A DNA stretch of 64,000 bases from Piscinibacter sp. (GTDB lineage: Bacteria > Pseudomonadota > Gammaproteobacteria > Burkholderiales > Burkholderiaceae_C). Each line of letters opens with the position of its first letter. Position 1 is the first letter of the stretch. Position numbers and translations under genes: made by a program. Where the stretch lies: assembly GCF_036377015.1 (NCBI RefSeq), contig NZ_DASUZE010000116.1; one strand, given 5' to 3'. The notes under the pieces are model-generated. The model worked only from the letters and a program-made list of their open reading frames with translations, ran no database searches and was not told the origin of the DNA. Below, piece after piece: positions 19,151 to 48,013 of this stretch.

Positions 19151-20836
19151 TCAGCGCGTGAACGACCAGTCGAGCCGGACGCTTCCCTCGACGCGGCTGC
19201 CCTGGATCGTGCTGCCGTCGCCGCTCAGCGTGCCCTGCACGTCCCAGCCCCAGCCCACCAGCGCAGGACGCGTGGCGCTGGCCTTCGGGCAGACGGCCGT
19301 CAGGCTCGCGTTCCAGAACGTGATCAGCCGCGCCTTGTACGTCGGCGGACTCACGCTGTCGTCGATCTCCAGCATGGCCAGCTGCGGGTCGGCCGACACC
19401 GGCTGCTGCGAGGGCGTGACCGTGGTCGTGCAGCCGTCGTCGAGCACCTCCACGTCCATGGTGCCGGTGGCCCGGTAGCGGGTGATGGTGCCGCTGCTCG
19501 CGGCCGGGTCGCGGTTCCAGTTCAGCGGCACCGCGACCTTGATCGTCGTGCCCGCGTCCGACGGACCGTCGACCGCCGACATGGTGCCGGTCCAGGTGTC
19601 GCCGACGATGGTCACGGCCGACGACAGGACGAGCGTGCGGCCGGTCTTCGCGCTGGTGCTCTGGAAGCTCACGATGACGGTGCGCGGATCGGGCACCTCG
19701 CGCGGCGCGGTGTAGGTGGCGCCGACGCTGCCGCTCGCCGCCACGCGGCCGTAGGTCGCGTCGCCGCCCTCCTGGAGGAACACCAGCCACTTGCGCGCGA
19801 AGCCGGCCTTCTCGTTGAGGAAGGGAATCTCCTTGGTGTCCAGGATGGGAGACGCCAGGCACAGCTCGAGGCCGTCGTCGTCGGTCTCGCACTGGCTCAT
19901 CACGCTGCCGATGGCCACGCGGGTGCGCGCGTAGGGCACCAGCGCGAGCGTGCGGCCGACCGGCACCGAGGCCTTCTTCGGCGCGAGATGGAAGGCCAGG
20001 TACTTGACCGCGCGGAACTCGATCGCCACCGACGCACCCCGGCCTGCCGCGGCGGCCTGCGCCGATCGCAGCGGCGCGAGCATGTCGGGCAGGAGGGTCG
20101 AGCTCAGCGTGCGTGTCGCCTTGTCCGCTTGCGCCAACGGCAGCGACAGCCAGCTGCCGTCGTTGCGCTGCATCGCGATGCGCAGGCCATCGGCCTGCGG
20201 CATCAGCGCGTCGCCGTAGCCGAAGCGCAGCGTGAGCGGCTTGGCCGGCGCGGCAGCGAGCCGGACTCGCAGGCCGTCGTCGCGACCGTCGGGCGCGGTG
20301 TTGGTCACGCCTTGCAGCGTGATCTCGGTGTCGGCCGCGAACGCGCCGGCGGGGACGTCGATGCTCACCGCGCCGTCGGGCGATACCAGCCGCCCGCCGG
20401 CCGCGCCGACGGTGTGCACGGCGCCGGCCCCTTGCTCCGTGCCGACCGCGGTGATCACCGCATCGTCGTCGCCGGTCGTGGCGCTGCGCTCGGCCACCAC
20501 ATCCTGGCTGGCGCCCAAGGCGACAAGGCGATAGGCATACGTGGTGTGGCGGGCGAGGCCGGTGTCGAGGTAGTAGCTCGCGCCGGCGTCCAGCGTGGCG
20601 ATGGCTTCATAGGCACCGGCGCCACTCTTGCGCTCGATGACGACGCCCGCCGCGCCCGCCTTCCAGCCCAGGCTCACGGTGCTCGCCGAGTTCCCGATCG
20701 CGACGAGCTGCAGGTCGGTCGTCGGCGCTGACGGATCGTCGGCCGCGGCCGTGCTGCCGCCTCCTGCGCCTCCGCAGCCGGCGATGATCACGGCCGCGGC
20801 GATGGCCAGCAGCACGATGCGGATGAATGAGCCCAT
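19151..20836 (-). CDS. Large lipoprotein with FN3-like and ZU5-like beta-rich domains
   Basis: Start MGSFIRIVLLAIAAAVIIAGC (lipobox); FN3-like VSLGW...YYLDTGL...YAYRLVA; ZU5-like GAAGGRLVSPDGAVSIDVPAGAF; Ser/Thr-rich. Confidence 0.75.
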   Translation of the reverse strand: MGSFIRIVLLAIAAAVIIAGCGGAGGGSTAAADDPSAPTTDLQLVAIGNSASTVSLGWKAGAAGVVIERKSGAGAYEAIATLDAGASYYLDTGLARHTTYAYRLVALGASQDVVAERSATTGDDDAVITAVGTEQGAGAVHTVGAAGGRLVSPDGAVSIDVPAGAFAADTEITLQGVTNTAPDGRDDGLRVRLAAAPAKPLTLRFGYGDALMPQADGLRIAMQRNDGSWLSLPLAQADKATRTLSSTLLPDMLAPLRSAQAAAAGRGASVAIEFRAVKYLAFHLAPKKASVPVGRTLALVPYARTRVAIGSVMSQCETDDDGLELCLASPILDTKEIPFLNEKAGFARKWLVFLQEGGDATYGRVAASGSVGATYTAPREVPDPRTVIVSFQSTSAKTGRTLVLSSAVTIVGDTWTGTMSAVDGPSDAGTTIKVAVPLNWNRDPAASSGTITRYRATGTMDVEVLDDGCTTTVTPSQQPVSADPQLAMLEIDDSVSPPTYKARLITFWNASLTAVCPKASATRPALVGWGWDVQGTLSGDGSTIQGSRVEGSVRLDWSFTR

Positions 20837-20875: not shown

Positions 20876-20922
20876 AGTCTGATCGGAGGGCCCTGCAGCC
20901 ACATCGCCCGTTGGAGCCATGG
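20876..20922 (-). promoter_or_regulatory. CGATG box copy 1 plus -10 (CAGACT) upstream of lipoprotein
   Basis: Sense CCATGGCTCCAACGGGCGATGTG (20900-20922), 18 nt, CAGACT (20876-20881). Confidence 0.7.
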
Positions 20923-20943
20923 CCCGTTCGGGCGAGCGCGGCG

Positions 20944-22338
20944 TCAACGGTCGACCCGCGCGCACCCGCCGTCCGGCAGCTCGCCTTCGCGCATCAGCCG
21001 CAGACGAACGGCCGGCTGGACCAGCGCCGGATCCAGCGCCAGTGCAACCTCGAAGGCCCGTCGCGCCTGCGCGCTGCGGCAATCGAGGGCCAGCGCGTGG
21101 CCCAGGTTGGCGAAGGCGCGCGCGTTGTGCGGCGACTTGCGAGCCACGTCGCCCCAGTAGGCGATCTCGTCGGCATAGACGCGGTTGCGCTCCCAGGTGG
21201 CGCAGCCCAGCACGAGCAGGATCATGGGCACCAGCCAGGCCTGCACGCCGCGCGGCACGCATCGAACGAGCGCCCACGCCGCGAGAAAGGCCGGACCGAC
21301 CAAGGCGAGGTAGAGCTGGCGCTCGTTGGCCAGGTCCAGTCGCGGCAACAGCGAGTTCGTCGGGGCGAGCCACAGCAGGAACCACAGCAGTGCGAAGGCA
21401 GCGACGCGATGGCGCCGCAGGCCCCACGCGCCGGCCACGAGCAGTGCGATCCAGACCGCGGCGTGCGCCATCGAAAGCAGTCCAGGCGCGGTCTCGACGA
21501 TCAGCGCCGGATCGGCATTGAGCCCGTCCAGCCGCACCAGCTGGCCGGCGAGATAGGACACGGCCTGGGCCTGCGCCAGCAGGTTGTCGCCCAGCTCGCG
21601 CGCCGCCAGGCTGGCTGCCAGCAGCTCCCGGTAGCGCGGCACGGCGCACGCCGCGATCAACGCGGCCGCGACCAGCAGCAGGTGCAGCCGGCTGTCGCGC
21701 CATGCGCTGCGCCACCACGCGCCATCGCCGGCCAGCACGCCGGCGCACAGCCACAGCGCGGCCGGCACGACGAGCGCGAACTCCTTGCAGGCCAGGGCCG
21801 CCCCCAGCGCCAGCGGCGACGCGACGAAGACGAGGGCCCGGCTGCCTCGATCGCGCCCCTGCAGCCACAGCGCGATGCTCGCGAGCGCGAAGAACGCCGC
21901 CAGCGAGGTCGAGCGCCCCGACACGTAGGTCACCGCCTCGGTCTGCACCGGGTGCAAGGCGAACACCGCCGTTGCGAGCCAGGCCGTGCGACGGCGACCT
22001 TCCTCGTCGAGCGCCAGCCGCGAGGCCAGGCGCCGCAGCAGCCAGGCCACCCACAAGGTGTTGCCGGCGTGCACGGCGAGGTTGACGGCATGGAAGCCCG
22101 CCAGCCCCCAGCCGGACACATGGTTCAGCGCGACGCTCAGCTTGAGCAGCGGCCGGATGCCCGGCTGCGCACGCCACCAGGCCGACACCGACTGCACGCT
22201 GGATTCGCGCACGATGACGTTGAAGTCGTCGAACTGGAAGCCACCCGCGAAGGCATTGGCATACGCCAGCGCGACGGCGACGAGCAAGGCCAGGCCGAAC
22301 CAGGCCACCGGCACCGGCAGTGGGGCCGCGTCACGCAT
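20944..22338 (-). CDS. TMTC-like GT-C membrane glycosyltransferase with C-terminal TPR
   Basis: DD motif after first TM (GGFQFDDFNVI), HPVQTEAVTYVSGR, ERQLYL, multiple TM helices, TPR-like tail (ARAFANLGHAL). Confidence 0.7.
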   Translation of the reverse strand: MRDAAPLPVPVAWFGLALLVAVALAYANAFAGGFQFDDFNVIVRESSVQSVSAWWRAQPGIRPLLKLSVALNHVSGWGLAGFHAVNLAVHAGNTLWVAWLLRRLASRLALDEEGRRRTAWLATAVFALHPVQTEAVTYVSGRSTSLAAFFALASIALWLQGRDRGSRALVFVASPLALGAALACKEFALVVPAALWLCAGVLAGDGAWWRSAWRDSRLHLLLVAAALIAACAVPRYRELLAASLAARELGDNLLAQAQAVSYLAGQLVRLDGLNADPALIVETAPGLLSMAHAAVWIALLVAGAWGLRRHRVAAFALLWFLLWLAPTNSLLPRLDLANERQLYLALVGPAFLAAWALVRCVPRGVQAWLVPMILLVLGCATWERNRVYADEIAYWGDVARKSPHNARAFANLGHALALDCRSAQARRAFEVALALDPALVQPAVRLRLMREGELPDGGCARVDR

Positions 22339-22352
22339 GTGCCACTCGCCCT

Positions 22353-23363
22353 TCAGCGCCCGAACAGGCCCTTGAGCAGCTGCCTGCCCTTCTCGATCGC
22401 CTCCTGGCGCGGGCTGCCCTCGGACGCTGCCGGTGCAGGCTCGGCGCCGGCGGTGCTCGAGACCTTGCGGATGCGCGTGCCGCCCCCGGCCAGGGTGGGA
22501 TCGTCCGACGCCACCGCGCCGCAGAACTCGCGGTACTTCTCCGCCGGCGGCGAGCTGAAGTTGCGGCCCGCGCATTCGCGCACCACCAAGGCACGCGCAT
22601 AGCCGCGCGAGACGCACCCGTTGACCAGCACGCCCAGCGCTTCCTGCTGCTCGGCGAGCCGGCACACGCTGGTGCTGATCGCCTCGTCGCTGGTGCCGCA
22701 GAGCTCGGCGCCTTCCTTCAGGTCGCCGCTGCTGATGCCGGCGACCATCGACGGGCGGCGGTTGCCGACGAGCGCGAAGCCCTCGGCCGATTGCAGGCGC
22801 CGGCAGAAGTCGGCCTTGTACTTCGGCTCGCACTGCCAGGGCGAGTCGGCGCGCAGGTTCTGCGGCATCAGGTTGTCGACCGCCGACTTGCACTGCATGA
22901 CCCGGACGTCGTCGGCCTGGCGCTGCGCCGAGGCGGCCTGCTGCTTCACCGCGGCCAGCTGGCGCCTGGCCTCGCCGGCGTCGCACTCGCCCACGCGGCG
23001 GCCGCTCATCTTCATGGTCATGCTGCGACCGGCCATGTCCATCGTCCAGGCGCCCTGGTAGCGGTCGCGGCCCTCGTAGCGGATCTCGCCCGAGCCGCTC
23101 AGGTTGCCCTCGCAGCGCATCTTCCAGGCCATGCCGCTCGCGCTGCGACGCACATCCAGCATCTCGCAGTGGCCGCTGGGGTCCGACAGGGGCGCGCTCT
23201 CGTTGCCCTTGGGGCTGCAGCGGCGATGCGTCTGGGGCCGCGCCGGCATGCCGCTCATCTGCGCCTCGACGGTGTCTTCCCAGAGATCACCGGGTTCGGT
23301 GGGCGGCTGCGCCCAGGACACGCTGGCGCCCCAAAGGCACAGCAGGACAAGCGTTCGGATCAT
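22353..23363 (-). CDS. Secreted DUF3617-like protein with Cys-rich C-terminal extension
   Basis: Signal peptide; PGDLWEDT, C...CEM...WKMRCEG, SGRRVGEC; 8 further Cys in the extension. Confidence 0.72.
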   Translation of the reverse strand: MIRTLVLLCLWGASVSWAQPPTEPGDLWEDTVEAQMSGMPARPQTHRRCSPKGNESAPLSDPSGHCEMLDVRRSASGMAWKMRCEGNLSGSGEIRYEGRDRYQGAWTMDMAGRSMTMKMSGRRVGECDAGEARRQLAAVKQQAASAQRQADDVRVMQCKSAVDNLMPQNLRADSPWQCEPKYKADFCRRLQSAEGFALVGNRRPSMVAGISSGDLKEGAELCGTSDEAISTSVCRLAEQQEALGVLVNGCVSRGYARALVVRECAGRNFSSPPAEKYREFCGAVASDDPTLAGGGTRIRKVSSTAGAEPAPAASEGSPRQEAIEKGRQLLKGLFGR

Positions 23364-23391
23364 GCAAGGCTCCTCGATGAAGAAGGCCCGC

Positions 23392-23438
23392 ACTCTAGGC
23401 AGCCGGCGCGCCGGCGGCATCGGTCAAAGGAGCCATCG
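23392..23438 (-). promoter_or_regulatory. CGATG box copy 2 plus -10 (TAGAGT) upstream of DUF3617-TMTC operon
   Basis: Sense CGATGGCTCCTTTGACCGATGCC (23416-23438), 18 nt, TAGAGT (23392-23397). Confidence 0.75.
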
Positions 23439-23479
23439 GGGCGAGCCACGAAGCCCTCAAGTTAGGGACAATCGGACAG

Positions 23480-26152
23480 ATGATCACGCCTGCCATCGCT
23501 GCGCAGAGCTTTGCGCTCACCAAGATCCAGGCCCCGCGGCCGCGCTCGCGGCTGATCGAGCGCGACGCGCTCGAGCAGCGCCTCGCCGAGGCGCTCGCGC
23601 ACAAGCCGCTGGTGCTGATCAGCGCACCCGCGGGCTTCGGCAAGACCGCCGCCATCACGCGCCAGCTCAACCTGCTGCCGGCAGGCACGGCGCTGGCCTG
23701 GGTGGCAGCCGACGAAGACGACGACCTCGGCCGTCTGGCGGCCTGCCTGATCGCCGCGCTGGAGCCCTTCGACCTGCCTTGGCGCACCTCGCCCGACGCG
23801 CTGGTGGCCGCCCAGGACGGCCAGCGCACGACCCGCCAGGCGCTGGCCAGCGAGCTGCTCAACGCGCTGGCCGCCACCGAAGTGCCGCGCGGGCTCATCG
23901 TGCTCGACGACGCACATCGCATCTCGGATCCCGCGGTGTTCGACTTCCTCGACACGCTGCTCGAGCGCATGCCGCCGCACTGGAGCCTGCTCATCGCCAG
24001 CCGCGTCGATCCGCCCCTGGCCCTCGCCAGGCGGCGCGCGCGCGGCGAGCTGGCGGAGTTCCGCCAGCAGGACCTGGGCTTCTCCGGCGAGGAGGTGCGC
24101 GACCTGGTCCACGAACGCGGCCTGCGCTGGACGCAGGAGCAGATCGACCAACTGGCCGAGCGCACCCAGGGTTGGCCGGCCGGCCTGGGGCTGGCCCTGA
24201 ACCACGGCGGCGCCACGCCGGCGGGCAACTTGCGCGACCGCCACGTGTTCGACTACCTCGCCACCGAGGTGCTCGACGGCCTGGAGCCCTCCCTGCGTGC
24301 GTTCCTGCTGCGCTGCTCGGTGCTGCCCGAGCTGACGGCGGCGCGCTGTGCGATGGTCAGCGGCGATCCCCTCGCGCCGCGCCGCCTCGAAGAGATCGAG
24401 CGGCGCGGCCTGTTCGTCTCGGTGCGCGGCGAGGAGCGCGGCGAGCCCATCCTGTGCCTGCACGACCTGTTCCGCGATTGCCTCGACGAGCGCCTGCGCA
24501 GCGAGCTCGGGCCGGAGCTGCCGGTGCTGCTCCAGCGCGCGGCCGACACCGAGCCCGACCTGGTCCGCCGCATCGGCTACCTGGCCCGCGCCGGCGCGTG
24601 GCGGACCGCCGAGGAAACGCTGTACGAGCTCGGCCCGGGCTTGCTCGCCCGCGGCGCGGTCGTGCCCATGCTGCGACTGCTGGAGCAATTCCCGGCCGCG
24701 CAGCGCGAGGAGTCTCCGCTGCTCGCTCACCTGCGCGGCCTGTGCGCCTGGGCCCACTGGGACCTGCTCACCATGTGCCGCTCGCTCGAGCGCGCCGCCC
24801 GCGCCTTCGCGGAACGCGGCATGCCCGGCGCCGCACAGCGCGCCCAGGTGCTGGTGGTGCTCGGCCTGGCCGCCGGTGGGCAGGTGCTGCGCTCGATGGA
24901 GCTGCTCGAAGCGCTGCGCCGCCAGCCCCTCGACAGCGCCACCGAGACCACCTGCTGGCAGGCCAGCAGCTGGCATGCGCTGGCGGCCTCTCACTTCGAC
25001 CAAGTGGCCGTACCCTTCACCCGCACCCTGGACCTGCTCGAGCGCAGCGAGGACCCCTTGCTGTGGCTGCAGTGCGTCCCGCTGACCTCGTTCGTCGGCC
25101 TGCCCCACACCCGTGCTCCGCTGCGGCGCTACATCGACGGCGCCCTGCGCCGCTCGCCCGAGGAGCCGCCCTCGCCGATGCGGGTGCTGGCGCATGCCCT
25201 GCAGGCCGGCTCGTGGCTATGGGAAGGCCGGGTCGAGGAAGCGGCCGAGCTGCTGGCGCGCGCCGACAAGGACTGCCGCTGGCTGAACCGGCCGCCCAAC
25301 CTGAGCGGCTACATCCATCTCTTCACCGGCCTGACGCAGGCCGTGCTCGGACATCGCGAGGCGGCGCTGGCGGCGGCCCAGTCGCGCCTGGACGGCCTGG
25401 AAGACGAGCGCACCAGCGGGCGCCGCGCGACCTGGCTGAGCCACTTCCTGTACGCCAAGGCCCGCGTCGCGCTGATCCTCGACGACGACGCCACGGTGCG
25501 CGAGATGGCCGCGCGCATCGCCGAGCGACACACGCCGGACGAAGTGCCGTTCTTCGTGCGCGAGCGGGGCCCGCTGCCGGGCCACCTGGCCGCGCTCGAC
25601 GAACGTTGGGACGAGGCTGCGGCGCGCTACGCGGCGGCACTCAACGATGCGCGCGGCATCGACATCTACGGCCAGGCGATCGAGACCCGGGTGCGCCTGG
25701 CCCACGCGCTGGTGATGCTGGGGCGCTTGCCCGAGGGGGCGCAGGCCCTCGCGCCGGTGTTCGCGGACGCACGCGCCGGCGGCGAGACCGGGCCGGTGCT
25801 GTTCGCCGGCGCCCGGGTGTGGCGCGCGCTCGGCGCGGCGCACTGGCGCGACCACCTGTCCGCCGGCGATCGCAGCCTGCTGGCCGGCTGGGCCCGGCGC
25901 ATGGAGGCCTTGCGCAGCGAGCCGGACGAGCCGGCCGCCGCGCCGGCCGCCGGCACCGGCGCCGTCGCGCTCAGCGCCCGCGAGCGCGACGTGCTCGCGC
26001 GCATCGCCTCCGGCGACAGCAACAAGCTCATCGCCCGCGCCTTCGACCTCAGCCCGCACACCGTGAAGCGTCACGTGGCGAACATCCTCGACAAGCTCGC
26101 CGTGCAGTCGCGCGGCCAGGCCGCGTCGTGGTACCGGGCGCACTCCCGGTAG
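23480..26152 (+). CDS. MalT-like STAND ATPase / LuxR HTH transcriptional activator 1
   Basis: APAGFGKT Walker A, LIVLDDAH Walker B, TQGWPAG, helical sensor region, C-terminal LuxR HTH. Confidence 0.92.
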   Translation: MITPAIAAQSFALTKIQAPRPRSRLIERDALEQRLAEALAHKPLVLISAPAGFGKTAAITRQLNLLPAGTALAWVAADEDDDLGRLAACLIAALEPFDLPWRTSPDALVAAQDGQRTTRQALASELLNALAATEVPRGLIVLDDAHRISDPAVFDFLDTLLERMPPHWSLLIASRVDPPLALARRRARGELAEFRQQDLGFSGEEVRDLVHERGLRWTQEQIDQLAERTQGWPAGLGLALNHGGATPAGNLRDRHVFDYLATEVLDGLEPSLRAFLLRCSVLPELTAARCAMVSGDPLAPRRLEEIERRGLFVSVRGEERGEPILCLHDLFRDCLDERLRSELGPELPVLLQRAADTEPDLVRRIGYLARAGAWRTAEETLYELGPGLLARGAVVPMLRLLEQFPAAQREESPLLAHLRGLCAWAHWDLLTMCRSLERAARAFAERGMPGAAQRAQVLVVLGLAAGGQVLRSMELLEALRRQPLDSATETTCWQASSWHALAASHFDQVAVPFTRTLDLLERSEDPLLWLQCVPLTSFVGLPHTRAPLRRYIDGALRRSPEEPPSPMRVLAHALQAGSWLWEGRVEEAAELLARADKDCRWLNRPPNLSGYIHLFTGLTQAVLGHREAALAAAQSRLDGLEDERTSGRRATWLSHFLYAKARVALILDDDATVREMAARIAERHTPDEVPFFVRERGPLPGHLAALDERWDEAAARYAAALNDARGIDIYGQAIETRVRLAHALVMLGRLPEGAQALAPVFADARAGGETGPVLFAGARVWRALGAAHWRDHLSAGDRSLLAGWARRMEALRSEPDEPAAAPAAGTGAVALSARERDVLARIASGDSNKLIARAFDLSPHTVKRHVANILDKLAVQSRGQAASWYRAHSR

Positions 26153-26165
26153 CGCCGGTGCGGGG

Positions 26166-27140
26166 TCAGGCCGTGACGGCCTGCGCGCCCACCAGGCCCA
26201 GCGCCGCGTCGCGGATCGCCTCCATCTGCGGCACCCCGGCCTGCTCCAGCACCCACGATCCCGCTGCCGGCGCATCGGGGCCTGTCAGGCGGCGCACCGG
26301 TGCGGTGAGCGCGTCGAAGGCTTTCTCGCTCACGAACGCGGCAACTTCGGCACCGACGCCGCACAGACCGTTGGCCTCGTGGACCACGATGAGCCGGCCG
26401 GTCTTGCGCACCGACGCCAGCACCGTGGCCTCGTCGATGGGCTTGAGCGTGCGCAGGTCGATCAGCTCGGCGTCGACGCCGCTGTCGGCCAGCGACTGCG
26501 CTGCGGCGAGGCACGCACCGACGGTCTTGGCGTAAGACACCAGCGTCACGTCGCGGCCTTCGCGCAGCACCGCCGCCTTGCCGATGGGCACGACGTGATC
26601 GCCTTCGGGCACCGGCCCCGGCGCGTGCGCCAGCGCCAGGTCCATGAAGAACATGACCGGGTTGTCGTCGCGAATGGCGGCCTTCATCAGGCCCTTGAAG
26701 TCCGCTGCATTGGAGGGCATCACCACCTTCAGGCCGGGCGCGTGGACGAACATCGCCTCGAGGTTGTGGTTGTGCTGCCCGCCGACGCTCCAGCCCGCGC
26801 CGGTCATGGTGAGCACGACCATCGGGAACTCGAACTGCCCGCCCGAAAGGTAGCGCAGCTTGCCGGCGCTGTTGATGATCGCGTCCATCGACAGCGTGAG
26901 GAAGGGCGCGAAGAGCAGGTCGACGACCGGGCGCAGGCCGGTCGCGGCAGCGCCCGCGGCGGTGCCGGCGATGATGCCCTCGGCCAGCGGCGTGTTGCGC
27001 ACGCGCTCGGGTCCGAACTCGGCGAGGAGGTCGTGGCGCTTGGTGGCCACGCCCTCGCCGAACATCAGCACGCGCGGGTCGCGGCGCATCTCTTCGGCCA
27101 GGGCCTGGCCGACGGCATCGGAAACGGTGATGGTTTGCAT
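26166..27140 (-). CDS. 2-oxoacid/acetoin dehydrogenase-like E1 beta subunit
   Basis: RVRNTPLAEG, PGLKVVMPS, DNPVMF, ELIDLRTLKP, VRKTGRLIVVHE. Confidence 0.9.
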   Translation of the reverse strand: MQTITVSDAVGQALAEEMRRDPRVLMFGEGVATKRHDLLAEFGPERVRNTPLAEGIIAGTAAGAAATGLRPVVDLLFAPFLTLSMDAIINSAGKLRYLSGGQFEFPMVVLTMTGAGWSVGGQHNHNLEAMFVHAPGLKVVMPSNAADFKGLMKAAIRDDNPVMFFMDLALAHAPGPVPEGDHVVPIGKAAVLREGRDVTLVSYAKTVGACLAAAQSLADSGVDAELIDLRTLKPIDEATVLASVRKTGRLIVVHEANGLCGVGAEVAAFVSEKAFDALTAPVRRLTGPDAPAAGSWVLEQAGVPQMEAIRDAALGLVGAQAVTA

Positions 27141-27160
27141 GGTGCGAAGACTCCGGGAGT

Positions 27161-28126
27161 TCAGGCGTAGACGTCGGTGGCGAGCTCGCGCAGGTCGGGC
27201 CAGGCCGAGGCTTGCGCGAAGGCCAGGGCGGCCTCGACGGTGTCGGACACGCGCTGGCGCAGATGGGCCAGCTCGCCGGGCAGCAGCACGCCATCGTCCA
27301 GCAGGCGCTGGCTCATCAGCGCGATCGGGTCGCGCGCCTTCCAGGCCGCGAGCTCCTTCGCGTCGACATAGGCCTGGTCGTCCGGCTCGAAGTGGCCGCG
27401 CTGGCGATAGGTGGTCAGCTCGAGGAACTGCGGCTGGCCGGTGGCCCGAATCGCGGCCACGGCCTCGCTCGCGGCCGCGTGCACCGCCTCGACGTCGTTG
27501 CCGTCGACGGTGCGCACCCCGATGCGGTGGCCGCGCACCCAGTCGGCGACGTGCTCGACCGGCATGGTCTCGTCGCGCCGCACGTAGGCCTGCCACTGGT
27601 TGTTCTCGCACACGTAGAGCAAGGGCAGCTGCCAGGTCACGGCGAGGTTGATCGACTCATGGAAGATGCCCTCGCAGGCCGCTCCGTCGCCGAAGAACAC
27701 GGTGGTGATGCCGCCCGGCTCCTGGTGCCCCATCTTCTGCGACAGGGCGACGCCGGGCGCGAGCGACAGCTCGCCGCCGACGATGGTCGAGGTGAGCACC
27801 ACGCCCAGTTCCTTGGCCGAGACGTGCAGCGAGCCGCTCTTGCCCTTGCAGTAGCCGTCGGCGCGCCCCATCACCTCGGCCATCAGCCGCCCGGGATCGG
27901 CGCCGCGCGCCAGCAGGTGACCGGCGCTGCGGTGGTTGGTGAGGATGCGGTCGCGCGACTGCAGGGCGTGCACCACGCCGACGGCGGCGGCTTCCTGGCC
28001 GACCGACGTGCAGGTGCCGGGCGAGGTGGGCGTGGCCAGCGACGCGAGCCGCTCCTCGTGGGCGCGGATCAGCATCATGGTCTCCAGCATGGAGATGCGG
28101 GCGAGTGGATCGGGAATGGATGGCAT
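27161..28126 (-). CDS. ThDP-dependent E1 alpha subunit (AcoA/PdhA-like)
   Basis: GQEAAAVG, TNHR, GKSGSLH, FFGDGA...ENNQW ThDP motif, TYRQRGHFEPD. Confidence 0.9.
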   Translation of the reverse strand: MPSIPDPLARISMLETMMLIRAHEERLASLATPTSPGTCTSVGQEAAAVGVVHALQSRDRILTNHRSAGHLLARGADPGRLMAEVMGRADGYCKGKSGSLHVSAKELGVVLTSTIVGGELSLAPGVALSQKMGHQEPGGITTVFFGDGAACEGIFHESINLAVTWQLPLLYVCENNQWQAYVRRDETMPVEHVADWVRGHRIGVRTVDGNDVEAVHAAASEAVAAIRATGQPQFLELTTYRQRGHFEPDDQAYVDAKELAAWKARDPIALMSQRLLDDGVLLPGELAHLRQRVSDTVEAALAFAQASAWPDLRELATDVYA

Positions 28127-28156
28127 GGCGGGCTCGCGGTGTGGATCGGAGCCGGG

Positions 28157-28203
28157 ACTGTAGGAAGCGGGGCGCGCCGCCACATCGTCCGAAGGAGCCA
28201 TCG
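28157..28203 (-). promoter_or_regulatory. CGATG box copy 3 plus -10 (TACAGT) upstream of E1 alpha/beta
   Basis: Sense CGATGGCTCCTTCGGACGATGTG (28181-28203), 18 nt, TACAGT (28157-28162). Confidence 0.78.
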
Positions 28204-28233
28204 CGCCGATGGCGGCGGGCCATGGCCCGCGAT

Positions 28234-30930
28234 TCAGCCCTTCAGGTCGCGCCAGCGAGCCGCGGCCTGACCACGCGTGGCCACGCCCAGCTTGTCGAGG
28301 ATGTTGGCGACGTGGCGCTTCACGGTGTGCGGGCTGAGGTCGAAGGCGCGAGCGATCAGCTTGTTGCTGTCGCCGGCCGCCATGCGTTGCAGGACCTCGC
28401 GTTCGCGCTCGCTGAGCACGGCCAGCGCATCGCCAGCCTCGGGCCGGCGCGCGGCCCGGGCTGCGGCAGGGACCGGCTCGACCGGCACGGCCGGCACGGT
28501 GATCGGCGCAGCCGGGAACAGGCCCGGCAGGCGCCGCAGCAGCGCGGACTCGGCCGGCCCCAGGCGGCCTCCCCAGTCCGCTGCGGCCAGCCGCTGCAGT
28601 GCCGGGCGACCGGCCAGCAGCGCTCCGCCCACCTCGCCGTCGTGCACGACCCGCGAGAGCCACGGCGCGAGCGTGGCCGCCGCCGCGTCCAGCGCGCCCA
28701 GGCGCAGCTCGACGTCGGCCAGCATCATCGTCATCTGCGTCGACGGGAAGAAGCACGACGCATCGGGCTTCCCCGCCAGCGGCTGCAGCAGCTCGCGCGC
28801 TTCGTCGAGCCGATCGTCGAGCAGCGCGAGCATGGCGCGCGTGGCGCGCCGGTCGTCGTCGGCCGCTGCCCACTCGTACGCATTGCCGGTGCGCGCGATG
28901 GCGCCGGCGAGCGAGCGCAGCACGGCGGAGTCGCCGATCAGCCAGGCCGCCCGCACGTAGGTGAACAGCTCCTCGTACTCATGGGTGAGCCGGTTGCTAC
29001 GCAGCGAGTTCTCCTCGAGGTCGCGCTTGTTCTCCTCGGCAGCGGCGAAGCTCGCCTCGCGGTCGCCGCGCACGGCGTCGATCAGCGTGTGCGCCATCCA
29101 GTTCTCGGTCATGAGGCTGCGCGGGCGACCCAGCCAGCGTACGTCTTCGTCGGCGCGCGCCAGCCATTGCGCAGCCTCGTCGACGCGGCCCTGGGAGAAG
29201 GCCAGCCAGGCGCGGATGTGCATCACGCCGGCACGCAGCTGGGTCGGCGAGTCGCTCAGCACGCGCATCGCGCCGGCGGCGAAGCGCTCGAGCAGCGGCC
29301 GCATGCCCGGCAGGCCGGTGAGCAGGCTCACGAAGAAGCAGCGGTCCCAGACCTGCGGGTCGTGCGAGCGCTCCAGCGCCTGCAGCATCTCGGTGACCCG
29401 GGGCGCGACGTCGTCGGCGCGCATCTGCGCGTAGGCGGCCCAGGCGCTGCCGAAGCACACGAAGGGACGCACCGTGTCGTCCAGCGACAAGGCACGCAGG
29501 CGGTCGAGCTCGGCACTGGCCGACGGCAACTGCCCGGTGTTCTGCATGGCGACACAGGCATAGGCTTGCGCCAAGGCCGCCTCCTGCGGGCGGCCGTCGC
29601 GCTCGTAGCCCTCGGCCGCCCGCCGCATGGCGGCGCACATGCCGTCGAAGTCGAAGCGCGGGAAGGTGGTGAGGCCGTGCAGCAGGTGCAGGCCCGGCCG
29701 GCGCACGAACTCGGACAGCGGAAACTGCGCGAGCATCTGCTCCAGCGCGGGTCCGCCGCCCATGGCGACCAGCGCCGGGCCGCGCTCCATGAGGACGCGG
29801 CTGGCGGCGTCCCAGTCGGCGGCGCGGGTGAGGTAGCCCACCGCCCGCACCGGGTCGGTCTCGTCGTCGGCGGCGCGGCGCAGCAGGTAGGGCACCTCCT
29901 GCGGGTACTCGCGCTGCAGCCGGTCCTCGAGGAAGTCGCGGAACAGGTCGTGCAGGCGCAGGGTGAGCTCGTCGGCGTCGAGGGTGACGACGAACAGGCC
30001 GCGCCGCTCCACCTCTTCGAGCAGGCGCGCGGTCCGCGGGATGCGGCTCACGTGCTCGCAGCGCGTGGCGGTGAGCTCGGGCAGCACCGAGCAGCGCAGC
30101 AGGAACCAGCGCAGGTCCGCCGGCATGTCGTCGAGCACCTCGCTGGCGAGGTAGTCGAACAGGTGGCGCTGGGTGGGCGAGCCCACCCCCAGGGGCGCAC
30201 CGCCGGGGCGGGCCGACAGGCTCAGGCGCAGGCCGGCGGCCCAGCCGTCGGTGCGGGCCAGCAGCTCGCGCGAGGCGGACGGCGCGGGCGTCGCGCCGTT
30301 GTCGGCCAGCAAGGCGGCGACTTCCGATTCGTTGAAGCGCAGGTCGTACTGGCGGAACTCCGCCAGCTCGCCGCCGGCCCGCCAGCGGGCCAGGGTCAGC
30401 GGCGGCTCGACCCGGCTGGCGATGGCCACGCCCCACTGCTCGGGCAGCCGGTCGAGCATCGCCTGGAGCAGGTCGAACACCTGCGGGTCGGCGATGCGGT
30501 GGGCGTCGTCGATGACGATGACGCCGCGCTGGACCTCGGCCGAGGCGAGCGCGTTGACCAGCTCGCTGGCAACGTCGCGCAGGCCGCGCTCGGCCTGGGC
30601 CAGCGTGGCCAGCGCCTCGGGCGAGACCCGCCAGGGCAGGTCGTGCGGCTCCAGCGCCGTGGTCAGGCAGGCCAGGAAGCGCTGCAGCTGGTCGTCCTCG
30701 TCGGCCGACACCCAGGCCAGCGCACAACCGGGCGGCAGGCGGCGGATCTGGCGGGTGAGCGCGGCCGTCTTGCCGTAGCCGGCCGGGGCGACCAGCAGGG
30801 TCAGGCGGTGCTGCTGCAAGGCGGCGTCGAGGGCCTGCTCCAGGGCGGGGCGCTCGACCAGCCCGGTGCGCGGCCGGGGGGGCTGGATCTTCGCGAGCGC
30901 AAAGGCGGGAAGCGAGGCCGTCGACTGCAT
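28234..30930 (-). CDS. MalT-like STAND ATPase / LuxR HTH transcriptional activator 2
   Basis: APAGYGKT, IVIDDAH, TDGWAAG, C-terminal HTH nearly identical to activator 1. Confidence 0.92.
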   Translation of the reverse strand: MQSTASLPAFALAKIQPPRPRTGLVERPALEQALDAALQQHRLTLLVAPAGYGKTAALTRQIRRLPPGCALAWVSADEDDQLQRFLACLTTALEPHDLPWRVSPEALATLAQAERGLRDVASELVNALASAEVQRGVIVIDDAHRIADPQVFDLLQAMLDRLPEQWGVAIASRVEPPLTLARWRAGGELAEFRQYDLRFNESEVAALLADNGATPAPSASRELLARTDGWAAGLRLSLSARPGGAPLGVGSPTQRHLFDYLASEVLDDMPADLRWFLLRCSVLPELTATRCEHVSRIPRTARLLEEVERRGLFVVTLDADELTLRLHDLFRDFLEDRLQREYPQEVPYLLRRAADDETDPVRAVGYLTRAADWDAASRVLMERGPALVAMGGGPALEQMLAQFPLSEFVRRPGLHLLHGLTTFPRFDFDGMCAAMRRAAEGYERDGRPQEAALAQAYACVAMQNTGQLPSASAELDRLRALSLDDTVRPFVCFGSAWAAYAQMRADDVAPRVTEMLQALERSHDPQVWDRCFFVSLLTGLPGMRPLLERFAAGAMRVLSDSPTQLRAGVMHIRAWLAFSQGRVDEAAQWLARADEDVRWLGRPRSLMTENWMAHTLIDAVRGDREASFAAAEENKRDLEENSLRSNRLTHEYEELFTYVRAAWLIGDSAVLRSLAGAIARTGNAYEWAAADDDRRATRAMLALLDDRLDEARELLQPLAGKPDASCFFPSTQMTMMLADVELRLGALDAAAATLAPWLSRVVHDGEVGGALLAGRPALQRLAAADWGGRLGPAESALLRRLPGLFPAAPITVPAVPVEPVPAAARAARRPEAGDALAVLSEREREVLQRMAAGDSNKLIARAFDLSPHTVKRHVANILDKLGVATRGQAAARWRDLKG

Positions 30931-30992
30931 GCGTGAATTTTGCCGCAGCGCTTCTCGACTGCAGCACTCGCGGGCCACGCGCAAACCCCAAC

Positions 30993-31039
30993 CGATGGCT
31001 CTTTCGGGCGATGTGCGTTCACCATCGCCTCCGGACACT
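30993..31039 (+). promoter_or_regulatory. CGATG box copy 4 plus -10 (GACACT) upstream of cupin
   Basis: CGATGGCTCTTTCGGGCGATGTG (30993-31015), 18 nt, GACACT (31034-31039). Confidence 0.75.
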
Positions 31040-31046
31040 CGCCGCC

Positions 31047-31379
31047 ATGCACGTCGTCCACCATGCCCACCTGCCCCACCTGCACCTCGGCGACGAACTG
31101 TGCATTGCCGTCGCCGACCGCAGCCGCGGCATCACGGGCTTCGAGGTCTGGCTGCGCACGCTCGCCCCCGGCGCCCACACCGAGGCGCTGCGCCACGCCG
31201 GCGAGCTGGTGGTGCTGGCCCTGGCCGGCGGCGGCAAGCTGCTGATCGACGGCGGGCCGCAGCGCTTCAGCGGGCCCTGCACCTTGCTGATCCCGGCCGG
31301 CGCGCAGTTCCAGCTGGTCAATCAAGGGACTGAGCCGCTGCAGCTGGTCTGGGTGTTCACGAGTCCGCCGACCGTGTAA
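31047..31379 (+). CDS. Small cupin-fold protein (degenerate metal site)
   Basis: FEVWLRTLAPG...RHAGELVVLALAGGG and LLIPAGAQFQLVNQGTEPL cupin pattern. Confidence 0.72.
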   Translation: MHVVHHAHLPHLHLGDELCIAVADRSRGITGFEVWLRTLAPGAHTEALRHAGELVVLALAGGGKLLIDGGPQRFSGPCTLLIPAGAQFQLVNQGTEPLQLVWVFTSPPTV

Positions 31380-31414
31380 CCCCCCGGAAGGGGTGGCCCG
31401 TCGCCGTGGTCCTC

Positions 31415-31461
31415 CGATGGCTCCTTCGACCGATGTGCGATCGGCCGCCGATCCAGACACT
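31415..31461 (+). promoter_or_regulatory. CGATG box copy 5 plus -10 (GACACT) upstream of hemerythrin-like pair
   Basis: CGATGGCTCCTTCGACCGATGTG (31415-31437), 18 nt, GACACT (31456-31461). Confidence 0.78.
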
Positions 31462-31492: not shown

Positions 31493-32059
31493 ATGCCCAC
31501 CCTCCCCATCGACATCGTCGTCGCGGCCCACAAGGCCACCCGCCGCTTCATGTTCGAGACCCTGGTCGCGATCGGCGCGCTGGACGTCACCGACGGCCAC
31601 GACATCGACCGCAGCCTGAACCTGCTCGAGCGCCTGCTCGAGGTGCTGGGCGAGACCCGGGACGACTGGCGCGACACGATCCACGGCCTGCGCCACGGCG
31701 CCGCCAGCCAGCGCCGCGGCCTGGCCGCCCGGCTCTATCGCGACCTCGCCGAGCTGGTCAGCCGCGAGCTGGCGCGCCTGCAGCGGCGCGAGGCCCAGGC
31801 CGGCGCGCAACCGGCCGCCGTGGCGCTCGAACGCCTCGACGACGACGAGCTGCGCGGCGCGCTGCACTGGATGGAAGGCGCCCTGACCCCGCAGGAGCTG
31901 GCGGGCCTCCTGGACCAGCTGCACACGCATGCGAACGCACCCCGCTTCAACCTCGCGCTGGCCGTGCTCGCCGAACGCATGGACAACCGGCGCTGGCACC
32001 AGCTCGCCCGCGCCCTCGACCTCCATCGCGACACGGCCCCCGTGGCCCTGGCCGCCTGA
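31493..32059 (+). CDS. Degenerate hemerythrin-like protein, paralogue of the next gene
   Basis: Shares HKAxRxFM, GxLDVTD, LYRxLA, WxxxALTPxExAGxL and WxxLA blocks with 32087-32809. Confidence 0.7.
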   Translation: MPTLPIDIVVAAHKATRRFMFETLVAIGALDVTDGHDIDRSLNLLERLLEVLGETRDDWRDTIHGLRHGAASQRRGLAARLYRDLAELVSRELARLQRREAQAGAQPAAVALERLDDDELRGALHWMEGALTPQELAGLLDQLHTHANAPRFNLALAVLAERMDNRRWHQLARALDLHRDTAPVALAA

Positions 32060-32086: not shown

Positions 32087-32809
32087 ATGATTGCCGACAC
32101 CCTCGCCCCCCGCCACGCGCCGCGCTACGACCTGTACGCGGGCATCCACAAGGCGGCGCGGGCCTTCATGACCGACACCCTGGGTCGCATCGGCCGCCTC
32201 GATGTCACCGACGACGCGGACACGCGGGCTGCCTTGACGCAGCTCGAGGCGCTGCTCGCCTTCTGCGAGAAGCACCTGCAGCACGAGAACGAGTTCGTGC
32301 ACCCGGCGATCGAGGCCCGCGAGCCCGGCAGCGCCGGCCGCATCGCCGCCGAGCATCGTGAGCACCTCGAGGCCATCGCGGCGCTGCGCGAGGACGCACG
32401 CCAGCTGCTGGTCGCCGCGCTGCCGCAGCGCGCATCGCTGGCCCTGCGCCTGTACCGCCACCTGGCCCTGTTCGTCGCCGAGAACTTCGAGCACATGCAC
32501 GTCGAGGAGACGCTGCACAACGCGACACTCTGGACCCACTACAGCGACGAGGAGCTGCACGCGCTGCACGGCCGCCTCAAGGCGAGCATCGCCCCCCCGG
32601 ACATGCTGGAGGTCCTGCGCTGGCTGGTCCCGGCGCTCACCCCGGCCGAGCGCGCCGGCATGCTCAACGGCGCCAAGGCCGAGATGCCGGCAACGGCTTT
32701 CCAGGCGATGGTCGGCTACGTGCGGCCGCACCTCGACGCGACGGCCTGGAACAAGCTCGCGCCGGCCATCGGGGTCGAGCGCGACCCGCGCTTCGCGCAC
32801 GTCGGCTGA
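32087..32809 (+). CDS. Hemerythrin/HHE-domain protein
   Basis: IHKAAR, HLQHENEFVHP, AEHREH, EHMHVEE His/Glu metal-ligand pattern. Confidence 0.8.
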   Translation: MIADTLAPRHAPRYDLYAGIHKAARAFMTDTLGRIGRLDVTDDADTRAALTQLEALLAFCEKHLQHENEFVHPAIEAREPGSAGRIAAEHREHLEAIAALREDARQLLVAALPQRASLALRLYRHLALFVAENFEHMHVEETLHNATLWTHYSDEELHALHGRLKASIAPPDMLEVLRWLVPALTPAERAGMLNGAKAEMPATAFQAMVGYVRPHLDATAWNKLAPAIGVERDPRFAHVG

Positions 32810-32813
32810 ATCC

Positions 32814-32853
32814 GGCTGCGCGCTTGCTGCGTAGACGCAGCAAGCGCGCAGCC
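32814..32853. repeat. Perfect 18-bp inverted repeat (hairpin) after the hemerythrin gene
   Basis: GGCTGCGCGCTTGCTGCG-TAGA-CGCAGCAAGCGCGCAGCC. Confidence 0.85.
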
Positions 32854-32870
32854 TGACGGCGCAATGCACT

Positions 32871-33106
32871 GCTCCCCCTGCCCCCCTCCGCGAGGGGGTT
32901 CCAGCTTGTTCGACGACACCCACCAGCCTCCCTCCGAGAGGGAGGCTCCGGCATGCATGAAAGGCCGGCCTACGGCCGGCACCCTGCTCAACGTGATGAC
33001 GTCGCCAAGGTGTTGCGTCAAACGCGCTGGAGCCTCCCTCTCGGAGGGAGGCTGGAGGGAGCAGTCGAACAAGCTGGAACCCCCTCTCGGAGGGGGCCTG
33101 GGGAGC
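32871..33106. repeat. REPIN/MITE-like element: two about 78-bp inverted arms around an about 80-bp spacer
   Basis: 32871-32949 is a near reverse complement of 33029-33106; each arm holds CCCCCTCCG(A/C)GAGGGGG and GCCTCCCTCCGAGAGGGAGGC palindromes. Confidence 0.8.
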
Positions 33107-44491: not shown

Positions 44492-47278
<2,787 letters not shown>

Positions 47279-47398: not shown

Positions 47399-47407
47399 AT
47401 GCGCCCC

Positions 47408-48010: not shown

Positions 48011-48013
48011 GTT

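What the first reader, a model, noticed from the sequence alone, without database searches (positions are those of the whole stretch)
20876..31461. A readable five-promoter regulon: 23-bp CGATG box fixed 18 nt upstream of a -10, around twin MalT-like activators
Seen in sequence: five copies, each on the sense strand of the downstream gene. They are CCATGGCTCCAACGGGCGATGTG (20900-20922), CGATGGCTCCTTTGACCGATGCC (23416-23438), CGATGGCTCCTTCGGACGATGTG (28181-28203), CGATGGCTCTTTCGGGCGATGTG (30993-31015) and CGATGGCTCCTTCGACCGATGTG (31415-31437). The box is two CGATG direct repeats 16 nt apart. Every copy is followed after exactly 18 nt by a -10-like hexamer (CAGACT, TAGAGT, TACAGT, GACACT, GACACT), so the distal CGATG occupies the -35 position. 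I saw no copy outside 20.9-31.5 kb. Established: MalT-family activators bind direct-repeat boxes next to the -35 region. Inference: the two local STAND-LuxR proteins activate a single, apparently undescribed regulon. It joins a surface lipoprotein, DUF3617 plus a TMTC-like glycosyltransferase, an orphan E1 alpha/beta, a cupin and a hemerythrin pair.
Basis: partly seen in the sequence, partly recalled or inferred. Interest (0 to 1): 0.88.

Follow-up and report, generated by a model that had tools for sequence, protein, structure and literature searches.

The report
Conserved box of a MalT-like regulon
Five promoters in a 10.6-kb stretch share a conserved 23-bp box set exactly 18 bases upstream of a weak -10 element; the box occurs nowhere else in this genome, recurs in related bacteria beside the same MalT-like regulators, and so marks a small, undescribed but conventional activator-controlled gene set.

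Summary
The five boxes lie at the stated coordinates and are the only such sites in the 6.06-Mb genome. A PWM trained only on relatives scores them 35-47 bits, and nothing else reaches 12 bits.

The box is conserved across the Piscinibacter/Rhizobacter/Rubrivivax/Methylibium/Aquabacterium group of Burkholderiales. It always points toward a downstream gene. In a set chosen without regard to the hexamer, 34 of 45 hits have nAnAnT exactly 18 nt downstream (chance about 0.4% per position). A CAT peak 5-7 nt further on fits a C(-1)A(+1) start, and several cupin genes begin at that A, which implies leaderless mRNAs.

Box and regulator co-occur: 17 genomes have both, 3 only the box, 4 only the regulator and 177 neither, across 201 genera (Fisher p = 3e-18). 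They are often adjacent. In some genomes boxed cargo lies 0.1-1.2 Mb from the regulator.

Best reading: this is the operator of MalT-like STAND-LuxR activators acting at promoters that lack a -35 element. Three corrections apply. The conserved core is ATGGCTCYTTYG-nn-CGATG, not two equal CGATG repeats. A third paralogue with the same recognition helix exists on another contig. The glycosyltransferase label is unconfirmed.

The parts
20900..20922 (-). Box 1 (CCATGGCTCCAACGGGCGATGTG), upstream of the lipoprotein gene. It is the weakest copy.
   Evidence: PWM 35.4 bits. The orthologous box before the lipoprotein homologue in G003 reads CCATGGCTCCACCGAGCGATGCC.
20876..20881 (-). -10-like hexamer CAGACT, 18 nt after box 1. 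It is followed by cgcgccc-CATCG, so the predicted start is the A at about 20867.
23416..23438 (-). Box 2 (CGATGGCTCCTTTGACCGATGCC). It lies in the 116-bp divergent region between the DUF3617 gene and Reg1.
   Evidence: PWM 40.2 bits; orthologous boxes before DUF3617 in G003 and G008
23392..23397 (-). -10-like hexamer TAGAGT, 18 nt after box 2
28181..28203 (-). Box 3 (CGATGGCTCCTTCGGACGATGTG), between the Reg2 stop and the E1 alpha gene
   Evidence: PWM 42.7 bits; orthologous boxes before E1 alpha in 9 other loci (cluster 2)
28157..28162 (-). -10-like hexamer TACAGT, 18 nt after box 3. The E1 alpha promoters of relatives have TACAGT, TAAAGT or TACATT.
30993..31015 (+). Box 4 (CGATGGCTCTTTCGGGCGATGTG), in the 116-bp divergent region between Reg2 and the cupin gene
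   Evidence: PWM 47.0 bits; 22 orthologous cupin promoters carry it (cluster 1)
31034..31039 (+). -10-like hexamer GACACT. The cupin ATG (31047) starts 7 nt later, at the predicted start site, so the mRNA is predicted to be leaderless.
31415..31437 (+). Box 5 (CGATGGCTCCTTCGACCGATGTG), upstream of the hemerythrin-like pair
   Evidence: PWM 45.2 bits. Hemerythrin-like genes are the commonest boxed cargo in the clade, 42 promoters (cluster 0).
31456..31461 (+). -10-like hexamer GACACT, 18 nt after box 5
23480..26152 (+). Reg1: MalT-like STAND ATPase with a C-terminal LuxR/GerE HTH (890 aa)
   Evidence: Pfam GerE 7.9e-17, AAA_16 and AAA_22. NCBIfam MalT 205.7 bits, below the cut-off of 537. 45% identical to Reg2, with an identical stretch GDSNKLIARAFDLSPHTVKRHVANILDKL.
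28234..30930 (-). Reg2: MalT-like STAND ATPase with a C-terminal LuxR/GerE HTH (898 aa)
   Evidence: Pfam GerE 1.2e-17, AAA_22. NCBIfam MalT 231.9 bits, below the cut-off. Residues 32-413 match the solved MalT chain 8bob at E 1.8e-29.
19151..20836 (-). Cargo: 561-aa lipoprotein (lipobox ...IIAGC) with no family assignment
22353..23363 (-). Cargo: secreted DUF3617 protein (336 aa)
   Evidence: Pfam DUF3617 9.8e-10
20944..22338 (-). Cargo, second gene of the box-2 operon: 464-aa protein with a weak C-terminal TPR match. The glycosyltransferase assignment is not confirmed.
27161..28126 (-). Cargo: ThDP-dependent dehydrogenase E1 alpha subunit
   Evidence: Pfam E1_dh 7.9e-61; below the NCBIfam PDH E1 alpha cut-offs
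26166..27140 (-). Cargo: E1 beta subunit
   Evidence: Pfam Transket_pyr and Transketolase_C; NCBIfam NF006667 321.2 bits against a cut-off of 321
31047..31379 (+). Cargo: 110-aa cupin
   Evidence: Pfam Cupin_2 9.3e-09
31493..32059 (+). Cargo: degenerate paralogue of the hemerythrin-like protein (188 aa, no Pfam hit)
   Evidence: 27% identical to the next gene, E 8e-15; no family
32087..32809 (+). Cargo: hemerythrin HHE-domain protein (240 aa)
   Evidence: Pfam Hemerythrin 1.6e-06
32811..32856 (+). 22-bp-stem hairpin directly after the hemerythrin stop codon. It probably marks the end of the box-5 operon.
   Evidence: I2, 95% complementary

Best explanation
The 23-bp box is the operator of a clade of MalT-like (STAND ATPase + LuxR HTH) transcription activators, here Reg1 and Reg2. 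Each target promoter has a weak -10 (nAnAnT, mostly CACACT, GACACT or TACAGT) and no -35 element.

Taking the conserved CA about 7 nt after the hexamer as -1/+1, the box covers about -54 to -32. The proximal CGATG is then centred near -36, where sigma region 4 would normally bind. The distal 12-mer ATGGCTCYTTYG is centred near -46.

By analogy with MalT, an unknown inducer plus ATP would drive the regulators into head-to-tail multimers. Their HTH domains would occupy the asymmetric box and recruit RNA polymerase (class II activation).

In this genome that would switch on five transcription units:
- the lipoprotein gene
- DUF3617 plus the TPR protein
- E1 alpha/beta
- the cupin (leaderless mRNA)
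- the hemerythrin-like pair

Reg1 and Reg2 have identical recognition helices but only 45% identity overall. They probably feed two different signals into the same promoters. Boxes 2 and 4 lie in the regulators' own divergent promoter regions, so autoregulation is likely.

What is shown: the sequence anatomy, uniqueness in the genome, conservation, and co-occurrence and adjacency with the regulators. What is inferred: binding, the direction of regulation, the start sites and the inducer.
For: 1. Uniqueness. Only five sites exist in 6.06 Mb.

2. Phylogenetic footprint. Within a 135-nt alignment, information content is confined to box positions 3-15 and 17-23 and to the hexamer, and the spacer is unconserved. 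Of 45 box hits found without regard to the hexamer, 34 have nAnAnT exactly 18 nt downstream, against a chance of about 0.004 per position.

3. Start-site signature. CAT sits 5-7 nt after the hexamer in 52 of 122 sites. A start codon lies 6-8 nt after the hexamer in 17 of 112 sites. These include the conserved cupin N-terminus MHV/MYVIHHAHL.

4. Link to the regulator. In 9 of 9 relatives with clustered boxes a Reg homologue is present, usually adjacent. Across 201 genera the counts are 17 both, 3 box only, 4 regulator only and 177 neither, p = 3e-18. Two apparent regulator-only genomes carry degenerate divergent boxes with the same 18-nt geometry.

5. Action in trans. In G008 the boxed E1 operon lies 1.25 Mb from the regulator locus, and in G025 the boxed hemerythrin gene lies 120 kb away.

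6. Conserved recognition helix. Regulators beside boxes carry SPHTVKRHVANILDKL almost invariantly.

7. Family fit. The regulators match MalT over the NOD and carry a GerE HTH. MalT multimers bind MalT boxes cooperatively and recruit RNA polymerase (PMC4381067).

8. No canonical sigma-70 promoter exists in 20.7-31.7 kb.
Against: There is no experimental evidence of binding, activation or start sites.

Co-occurrence is partly phylogenetic, because box and regulator are both restricted to one clade.

Paralogues with the same recognition helix have no box nearby (G000 C57, two in G008, and one each in G025 and G001). The helix alone therefore does not predict a local box.

The two conserved blocks are about 1.5 helical turns apart start to start and are not convincing repeats of each other. 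How many HTH domains bind, and in what arrangement, is unclear.

The hexamer is a poor match to TATAAT, 3 of 6 in most copies.

The cargo (hemerythrin-like, cupin, E1, cytochrome c, NmrA, PLD, lipoproteins, PEP-CTERM proteins) suggests no coherent pathway or inducer.
Confidence: 0.75

Rival explanations
1. The box is bound by a different transcription factor encoded elsewhere. The MalT-like regulators would then be co-inherited neighbours or members of the regulon, not its masters.
For: Binding was not tested. Some boxes lie directly upstream of regulator genes (cluster 11), so the regulators could be targets. Paralogues with the same helix lack local boxes.
Against: No other regulator gene is conserved next to the boxes in more than 100 loci. 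The only recurrent neighbour with a DNA-binding domain is the MalT-like protein. Box and regulator co-occur at p = 3e-18.
Confidence: 0.1
2. The regulators do bind the box, but as repressors or dual regulators. The box would act as an operator that blocks RNA polymerase until the inducer releases the protein.
For: The box overlaps the -35 position, which is also a typical repressor location. In the two divergent regions it must overlap the regulators' own promoters.
Against: The promoters have no recognisable -35 element and a weak -10, which argues for dependence on an activator. Characterised MalT-type STAND-LuxR proteins are activators (PMC4381067). The strictly conserved orientation and 18-nt register relative to the -10 are what class II activation requires and what repression does not.
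Confidence: 0.08
3. Box plus hexamer is the promoter of an alternative sigma factor, for example one of the ECF sigmas at 47-52 kb of the window, rather than an activator site.
For: The motif is bipartite, strictly oriented and at fixed spacing, like a sigma promoter. The LuxR HTH resembles sigma region 4 (weak Pfam Sigma70_r4 hits).
Against: The geometry does not fit. The conserved blocks are 11 nt apart, and 18-20 nt then follow before the hexamer, giving three elements over 47 bp. No homologue of the window's ECF sigmas occurs in any of the relatives' box-bearing loci. The hexamer follows the sigma-70 pattern of A2 and T6. The motif is not a sigma-54 TGGCAC-N5-TTGC promoter (inspection).
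Confidence: 0.04
4. The copies are a locally duplicated sequence or repeat element with no regulatory role.
For: All five lie within 10.6 kb.
Against: Spacers and flanks are unrelated, while the box and hexamer are conserved across many genera and upstream of unlinked genes. The reversed-pattern control gave 1 hit in 201 genomes, whereas 20 genomes had real matches.
Confidence: 0.02

Closest known systems
MalT and the maltose regulon of Escherichia coli
   Same: The domain plan is the same: a P-loop NOD, a helical sensor and a C-terminal LuxR/GerE HTH. The NOD region aligns to solved MalT (8bob, E 1.8e-29) and to the NCBIfam MalT model. MalT multimers bind asymmetric 'MalT boxes' cooperatively and recruit RNA polymerase at promoters that depend on them (PMC4381067). 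From memory, each MalT-dependent promoter has a box centred at about -37.5/-38.5, close to the position near -36 inferred here for the proximal CGATG.
   Different: These regulators are not MalT orthologues: they score 206-232 bits against a cut-off of 537. From memory, the MalT box is GGGGA(T/G)GAGG, which is unrelated apart from a GATG core. The element here is one compact 23-bp bipartite box rather than several separate boxes. The cargo has nothing to do with maltodextrins. Two or three paralogous sensors share one recognition helix.
AcoK and acoABCD of Klebsiella pneumoniae
   Same: A MalT-like LuxR-family regulator lies next to ThDP-dependent E1 alpha/beta genes.
   Different: Here E1 alpha/beta stands alone, with no adjacent E2, E3 or AcoX genes. 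E1 is only one of five boxed units. Across the clade the most frequent cargo is hemerythrin-like and cupin genes, not E1. I know of no described AcoK operator to compare with.
AlkS of Pseudomonas putida and the LAL (large ATP-binding LuxR) pathway regulators of actinomycetes
   Same: These are large ATP-binding LuxR-family activators that control adjacent operons, often with autoregulation.
   Different: Those control alkane degradation or antibiotic clusters, and their operators are different sequences (from memory). None is known to use the ATGGCTCYTTYG-nn-CGATG box. Full-text searches for the box sequence and for regulator/cargo combinations found nothing relevant.

Membership tests
MalT-like / LAL regulators (STAND ATPase + LuxR HTH) | N-terminal P-loop NOD (STAND ATPase) module | tested here: met
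   Pfam AAA_16 and AAA_22. NCBIfam MalT model aligned over residues about 13-448. PDB MalT 8bob E 1.8e-29 over residues 32-413. GxxGxGKT is visible (APAGFGKT, APAGYGKT).
MalT-like / LAL regulators (STAND ATPase + LuxR HTH) | C-terminal LuxR/GerE-type helix-turn-helix | tested here: met
   Pfam GerE 7.9e-17 and 1.2e-17
MalT-like / LAL regulators (STAND ATPase + LuxR HTH) | Superhelical (SUPR/TPR-like) sensor domain between the NOD and the HTH | tested here: inconclusive
   Only a weak TPR_16 hit in Reg2 (E 0.001, below the cut-off). No structure was predicted.
MalT-like / LAL regulators (STAND ATPase + LuxR HTH) | Inducer- and ATP-dependent multimerisation | not testable with these tools
   Biochemical property (PMC4381067)
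MalT proper (equivalog, maltose regulon activator) | Full-length score above the NCBIfam NF003420 cut-off | tested here: not met
   205.7 and 231.9 bits against a cut-off of 537. The regulators are not filed as MalT.
MalT proper (equivalog, maltose regulon activator) | Targets carry MalT boxes (GGGGA(T/G)GAGG, from memory) upstream of mal genes | tested here: not met
   The box here is ATGGCTCYTTYG-nn-CGATG. The cargo is hemerythrin-like, cupin, E1 and lipoprotein genes.
Class II activator-dependent sigma-70 promoter | Recognisable -10 but no -35 element | tested here: met
   nAnAnT is conserved at a fixed position. The consensus scan found no sigma-70-type promoter in 20.7-31.7 kb.
Class II activator-dependent sigma-70 promoter | Activator site abutting or overlapping the -35 position at a fixed register | tested here: met
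   An invariant 18-nt gap between box and hexamer in 34 of 45 unbiased sites, plus one at 19 nt. This is geometry only, not occupancy.
Class II activator-dependent sigma-70 promoter | Transcription starts 6-8 nt after the -10, and only with the activator present | not testable with these tools
There is only indirect support, from the CAT peak and from start codons at +1.
Regulon (trans-acting factor with dispersed targets) | Same operator upstream of unlinked genes in genomes that carry the regulator | tested here: met
   In G008 the E1 operon lies 1.25 Mb from the regulator, and in G025 the hemerythrin gene lies 120 kb away. Co-occurrence is 17/3/4/177. In the window's own genome all targets are local.

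The most novel reading that the evidence does not exclude
Two or three paralogous STAND sensors (Reg1, Reg2 and the C57 paralogue) have identical DNA-recognition helices but divergent sensor domains. They may co-assemble into mixed head-to-tail multimers on one compact operator. Such an arrangement would integrate several chemical signals at the level of oligomerisation. It would drive a previously unrecognised redox or envelope stress response (hemerythrin-like, cupin, orphan E1, cytochrome c, secreted lipoproteins) in the Rubrivivax-Rhizobacter-Piscinibacter group. Some genomes have expanded this to four tandem sensors.
Probability: 0.15. Interest if true: 0.65.

Novelty: new member of a known kind. 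Interest (0 to 1): 0.45.

Why it matters
This gives a precise, experimentally ready regulon for a group of MalT-like STAND regulators with no known function. These regulators are common in environmental Burkholderiales. The operator, its register to the -10, the predicted start sites and the full target list per genome are all defined.

Cultured strains carry the box and could be used directly: Rhizobacter sp. Root404, Aquincola agrisoli, Pseudaquabacterium terrae and P. pictum, and Aquabacterium humicola.

The regulon links several protein families of unknown role into one co-regulated set, which is a lead to their function and to the inducer. These are a hemerythrin-like protein and its degenerate paralogue, a small cupin, an orphan E1 alpha/beta pair and DUF3617.

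Mechanistically it is an ordinary activator-operator system, not a new kind of regulation.

Tried and rejected
- Sigma-54 promoter: the TGGC in the box is not followed by TTGC at the required distance, and the positions where GC would fall are variable (inspection).
- RNA element or hairpin (a UUCG-loop look-alike in CTCC-TTCG-GGCG): the would-be pairing positions 15-16 vary freely, and there is no Rfam match in 18-35 kb.
- ECF sigma promoter: no homologue of the window's ECF sigmas lies near boxes in other genomes.
- Palindrome: the box has no dyad symmetry (inspection).
- A variant box near the third paralogue (C57) and near the extra paralogues of G008, G025 and G001: the best local scores were at most 4.4 bits, so none was found.
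- Covariation between HTH variants and box positions 22-23: only a hint. The GLPNK... clade tends to have AC or AG there, but there are too few sites.
- Literature: searches for the box string, for MalT/LuxR with hemerythrin or cupin, and for Rubrivivax with hemerythrin or LuxR returned nothing relevant. One search failed on syntax.
- The glycosyltransferase label for 20944-22338: neither Pfam nor PDB sequence search supports it. No structure prediction was run.

Full report
OBSERVATION

- 20900-20922(-)
- 23416-23438(-)
- 28181-28203(-)
- 30993-31015(+)
- 31415-31437(+)

Shuffled versions of the window never produced a match. Each box is followed after exactly 18 nt by CAGACT, TAGAGT, TACAGT, GACACT and GACACT respectively.

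The window is C116:14622-78621 of a 6.06-Mb, 69% G+C assembly of 118 contigs. In that whole genome only these five sites match the consensus with up to 3 mismatches.

I trained a position weight matrix for box plus hexamer on 115 non-redundant sites from other genomes only. It scores the five at 35-47 bits. No other position in the genome reaches 12 bits, and the reversed genome gives none.

GENES

Pfam and NCBIfam confirm two MalT-like STAND-LuxR proteins. They are Reg1 (23480-26152, +) and Reg2 (28234-30930, -). Both have a GerE HTH and AAA_16/AAA_22 matches. Both align to the MalT model over the NOD region but score far below its cut-off. Residues 32-413 of Reg2 match solved MalT 8bob at E 1.8e-29.

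The two are 45% identical overall. They share an identical stretch, GDSNKLIARAFDLSPHTVKRHVANILDKL, across the HTH.

The boxed units are:
- a 561-aa lipoprotein (19151-20836)
- DUF3617 (22353-23363) followed by a 464-aa protein with a weak TPR match (20944-22338)
- E1 alpha/beta (27161-28126 and 26166-27140)
- a 110-aa cupin (31047-31379)
- a hemerythrin HHE protein (32087-32809) preceded by a degenerate paralogue (31493-32059; 27% identity, E 8e-15)

Pfam and PDB sequence searches did not confirm the 'TMTC-like glycosyltransferase' label. The other large ORFs in the window are MutS, Ser/Thr kinases and ATP-grasp proteins, not further regulators of this type.

COMPARATIVE EVIDENCE

A pattern search in 60 relatives found clustered boxes in six same-genus genomes and in other genera of the family. 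In the fetched loci the boxes sit beside homologues of Reg1 or Reg2. They lie in front of orthologues of the same cargo: cupin, hemerythrin-like, E1 alpha, DUF3617 and the lipoprotein.

A scan of one genome for each of 185,579 species returned 108 stretches. Nearly all come from Rubrivivax, Rhizobacter, Piscinibacter, Methylibium, Aquabacterium, Caldimonas, Ideonella, Aquincola and Pseudaquabacterium. A few come from Steroidobacteraceae and Pseudomonadales MAGs, where a regulator homologue again lies next to the box in two loci (L067, L079).

The window is therefore most likely from a Piscinibacter.

Across all loci the genes behind boxes are:
- hemerythrin-like, 42
- cupin, 23
- E1 alpha, 10
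- an uncharacterised secreted protein, 6
- NmrA-like, 5
- dihaem cytochrome c, 4
- DUF5122 lipoprotein, 4
- DUF3617, 3
- PLD-like lipoprotein, 3
- PEP-CTERM protein, 3
- the regulators themselves, 3

ANATOMY

I used the set of hits found without any constraint on the hexamer. In that set, information content is confined to box positions 3-15 and 17-23 and to the hexamer. The 18-nt spacer and the flanks are unconserved.

Of 45 such hits, 34 have nAnAnT exactly 18 nt downstream, where chance is about 0.4% per position. One more has it at 19 nt. Most of the remainder are low-quality hits inside genes.

The distal 'CGATG' is not conserved as such. It reads CAATG, GAATG, CCATG, CAGTG or GCATG in relatives. 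The contiguous block ATGGCTCYTTYG and the proximal CGATG are conserved. The box is therefore bipartite and asymmetric rather than two equal direct repeats. Only 'ATG' is common to both halves.

Downstream of the hexamer, CAT peaks at offsets 5-7, in 52 of 122 sites. This is the expected C(-1)A(+1) start-site context.

In 17 of 112 promoters a start codon lies 6-8 nt after the hexamer. For the cupin this ATG opens a conserved N-terminus (MHVVHHAHL, MYVIHHAHL, MHIFQHAHL). That includes the window's own cupin, whose ATG at 31047 lies 7 nt after GACACT. This implies leaderless mRNAs and supports the hexamer as a true -10.

With that start, the box spans about -54 to -32 and the proximal CGATG is centred near -36. 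The consensus scan finds no sigma-70-type promoter anywhere in 20.7-31.7 kb, as expected if these promoters need an activator.

LINK TO THE REGULATORS

All nine relatives with clustered boxes have a Reg homologue.

In a sample of one genome per genus across 201 genera of the family, 20 have the box with its hexamer, at up to 1 mismatch. The reversed control pattern gave 1 hit. Twenty-one genomes have a regulator homologue at E <= 1e-60.

The cross-tabulation is 17 both, 3 box only, 4 regulator only and 177 neither. Fisher p = 3e-18, odds ratio 251. Shared ancestry inflates this figure. Adjacency does not depend on ancestry.

Two genomes that first looked regulator-only (G030, G021) have degenerate, divergently arranged boxes with the same 18-nt register beside the regulator.

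The system acts in trans in some genomes. In G008 the boxed E1 operon lies 1.25 Mb from the regulator locus. In G025 the boxed hemerythrin gene lies 120 kb away.

Regulators next to boxes carry an almost invariant SPHTVKRHVANILDKL helix.

Some paralogues with the same helix have no box nearby. One is on contig C57 of this genome (33378-36038, 43% identical to Reg2). There are two in G008 and one each in G025 and G001. They may be further sensors for the same boxes or may have lost or changed their targets. This remains open.

MECHANISM

MalT, the prototype, multimerises head to tail when inducer and ATP bind. It then binds its boxes cooperatively and recruits RNA polymerase (PMC4381067).

The same scheme fits here. 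An unknown signal would activate Reg1 and/or Reg2. Their HTH domains would occupy the asymmetric box over the -35 position. Sigma-70 RNA polymerase would then start 6-8 nt after the weak -10.

Boxes 2 and 4 lie in the 116-bp divergent regions shared with reg1 and reg2, so autoregulation is likely. Identical recognition helices with divergent sensor regions suggest that two inputs converge on one promoter set.

Everything beyond the sequence anatomy, conservation and co-occurrence is inference.

RIVALS

- An alternative sigma promoter is unlikely. The geometry is three elements over 47 bp. No homologue of the window's ECF sigmas occurs in the relatives' box loci. The motif does not fit sigma-54.
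- An RNA structure is excluded by free variation at the would-be pairing positions and by the absence of any Rfam match.
- A repressor role, or binding by an unlinked factor, cannot be excluded without experiments. Both fit the data less well.

NOVELTY AND VERDICT

I found no description of this box or regulon. It is a new, well-defined member of a known kind: a MalT/LAL-type activator with its operator.

It is solid and immediately testable, but mechanistically conventional.

Noticed in passing
window 32875-33103: A palindromic element of about 230 bp (78-nt arms, 90% complementary, 73-nt centre) lies between the hemerythrin gene and the dihaem cytochrome c ORF. At least 15 related copies are spread over other contigs of the genome, so it looks like a MITE/REP-like dispersed repeat. 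It produced spurious miRNA hits in Rfam and overlaps the nominal start (32953) of the cytochrome c ORF.
   Followed up: partly
genome contig C57:33378-36038 (outside the window): A third MalT-like paralogue, 43% identical to Reg2, has nearly the same recognition helix (DISPHTVKRHVANILDKL). There is no box within 14 kb. It may be an orphan sensor for the same boxes or may have unknown targets.
   Followed up: partly
window 31034-31049; also L029, L046, L048, L066, L069: The cupin ATG lies 6-8 nt after the -10 hexamer in several species, predicting a leaderless mRNA. In other species the orthologous promoter has a 25-49-nt leader. Leader length therefore varies between species within one regulon.
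   Followed up: partly
G218:C15:146634-165461 and G139 (relatives): Some genera carry four paralogues of this regulator. In G218 they lie in tandem, about 10 kb from a box. The sensor family has expanded by lineage.
   Followed up: no
L042 (Verrucomicrobiae MAG) and L120 (Burkholderiaceae MAG): The box, spacer, hexamer and downstream hemerythrin-like leader are nearly identical in a contig binned as Verrucomicrobiae and in a Burkholderiaceae MAG. This suggests a mis-binned contig or a recent transfer.
   Followed up: no
window 23418-23420: The first ATG of the long open frame for the DUF3617 gene lies inside box 2, within its CGATG. The likely true start is the in-frame ATG at 23363, which opens a signal peptide. 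Automatic annotation may over-extend this gene into its own operator.
   Followed up: yes
window 32811-32856: A 22-bp-stem hairpin lies immediately after the hemerythrin stop codon and has no T-run. It probably ends the box-5 operon.
   Followed up: no
window 44492-52190: Two Ser/Thr kinase-TPR genes are each paired with an ECF sigma (the two sigmas are 67% identical). They are unrelated to the box, and no homologues lie near boxes in other genomes.
   Followed up: partly
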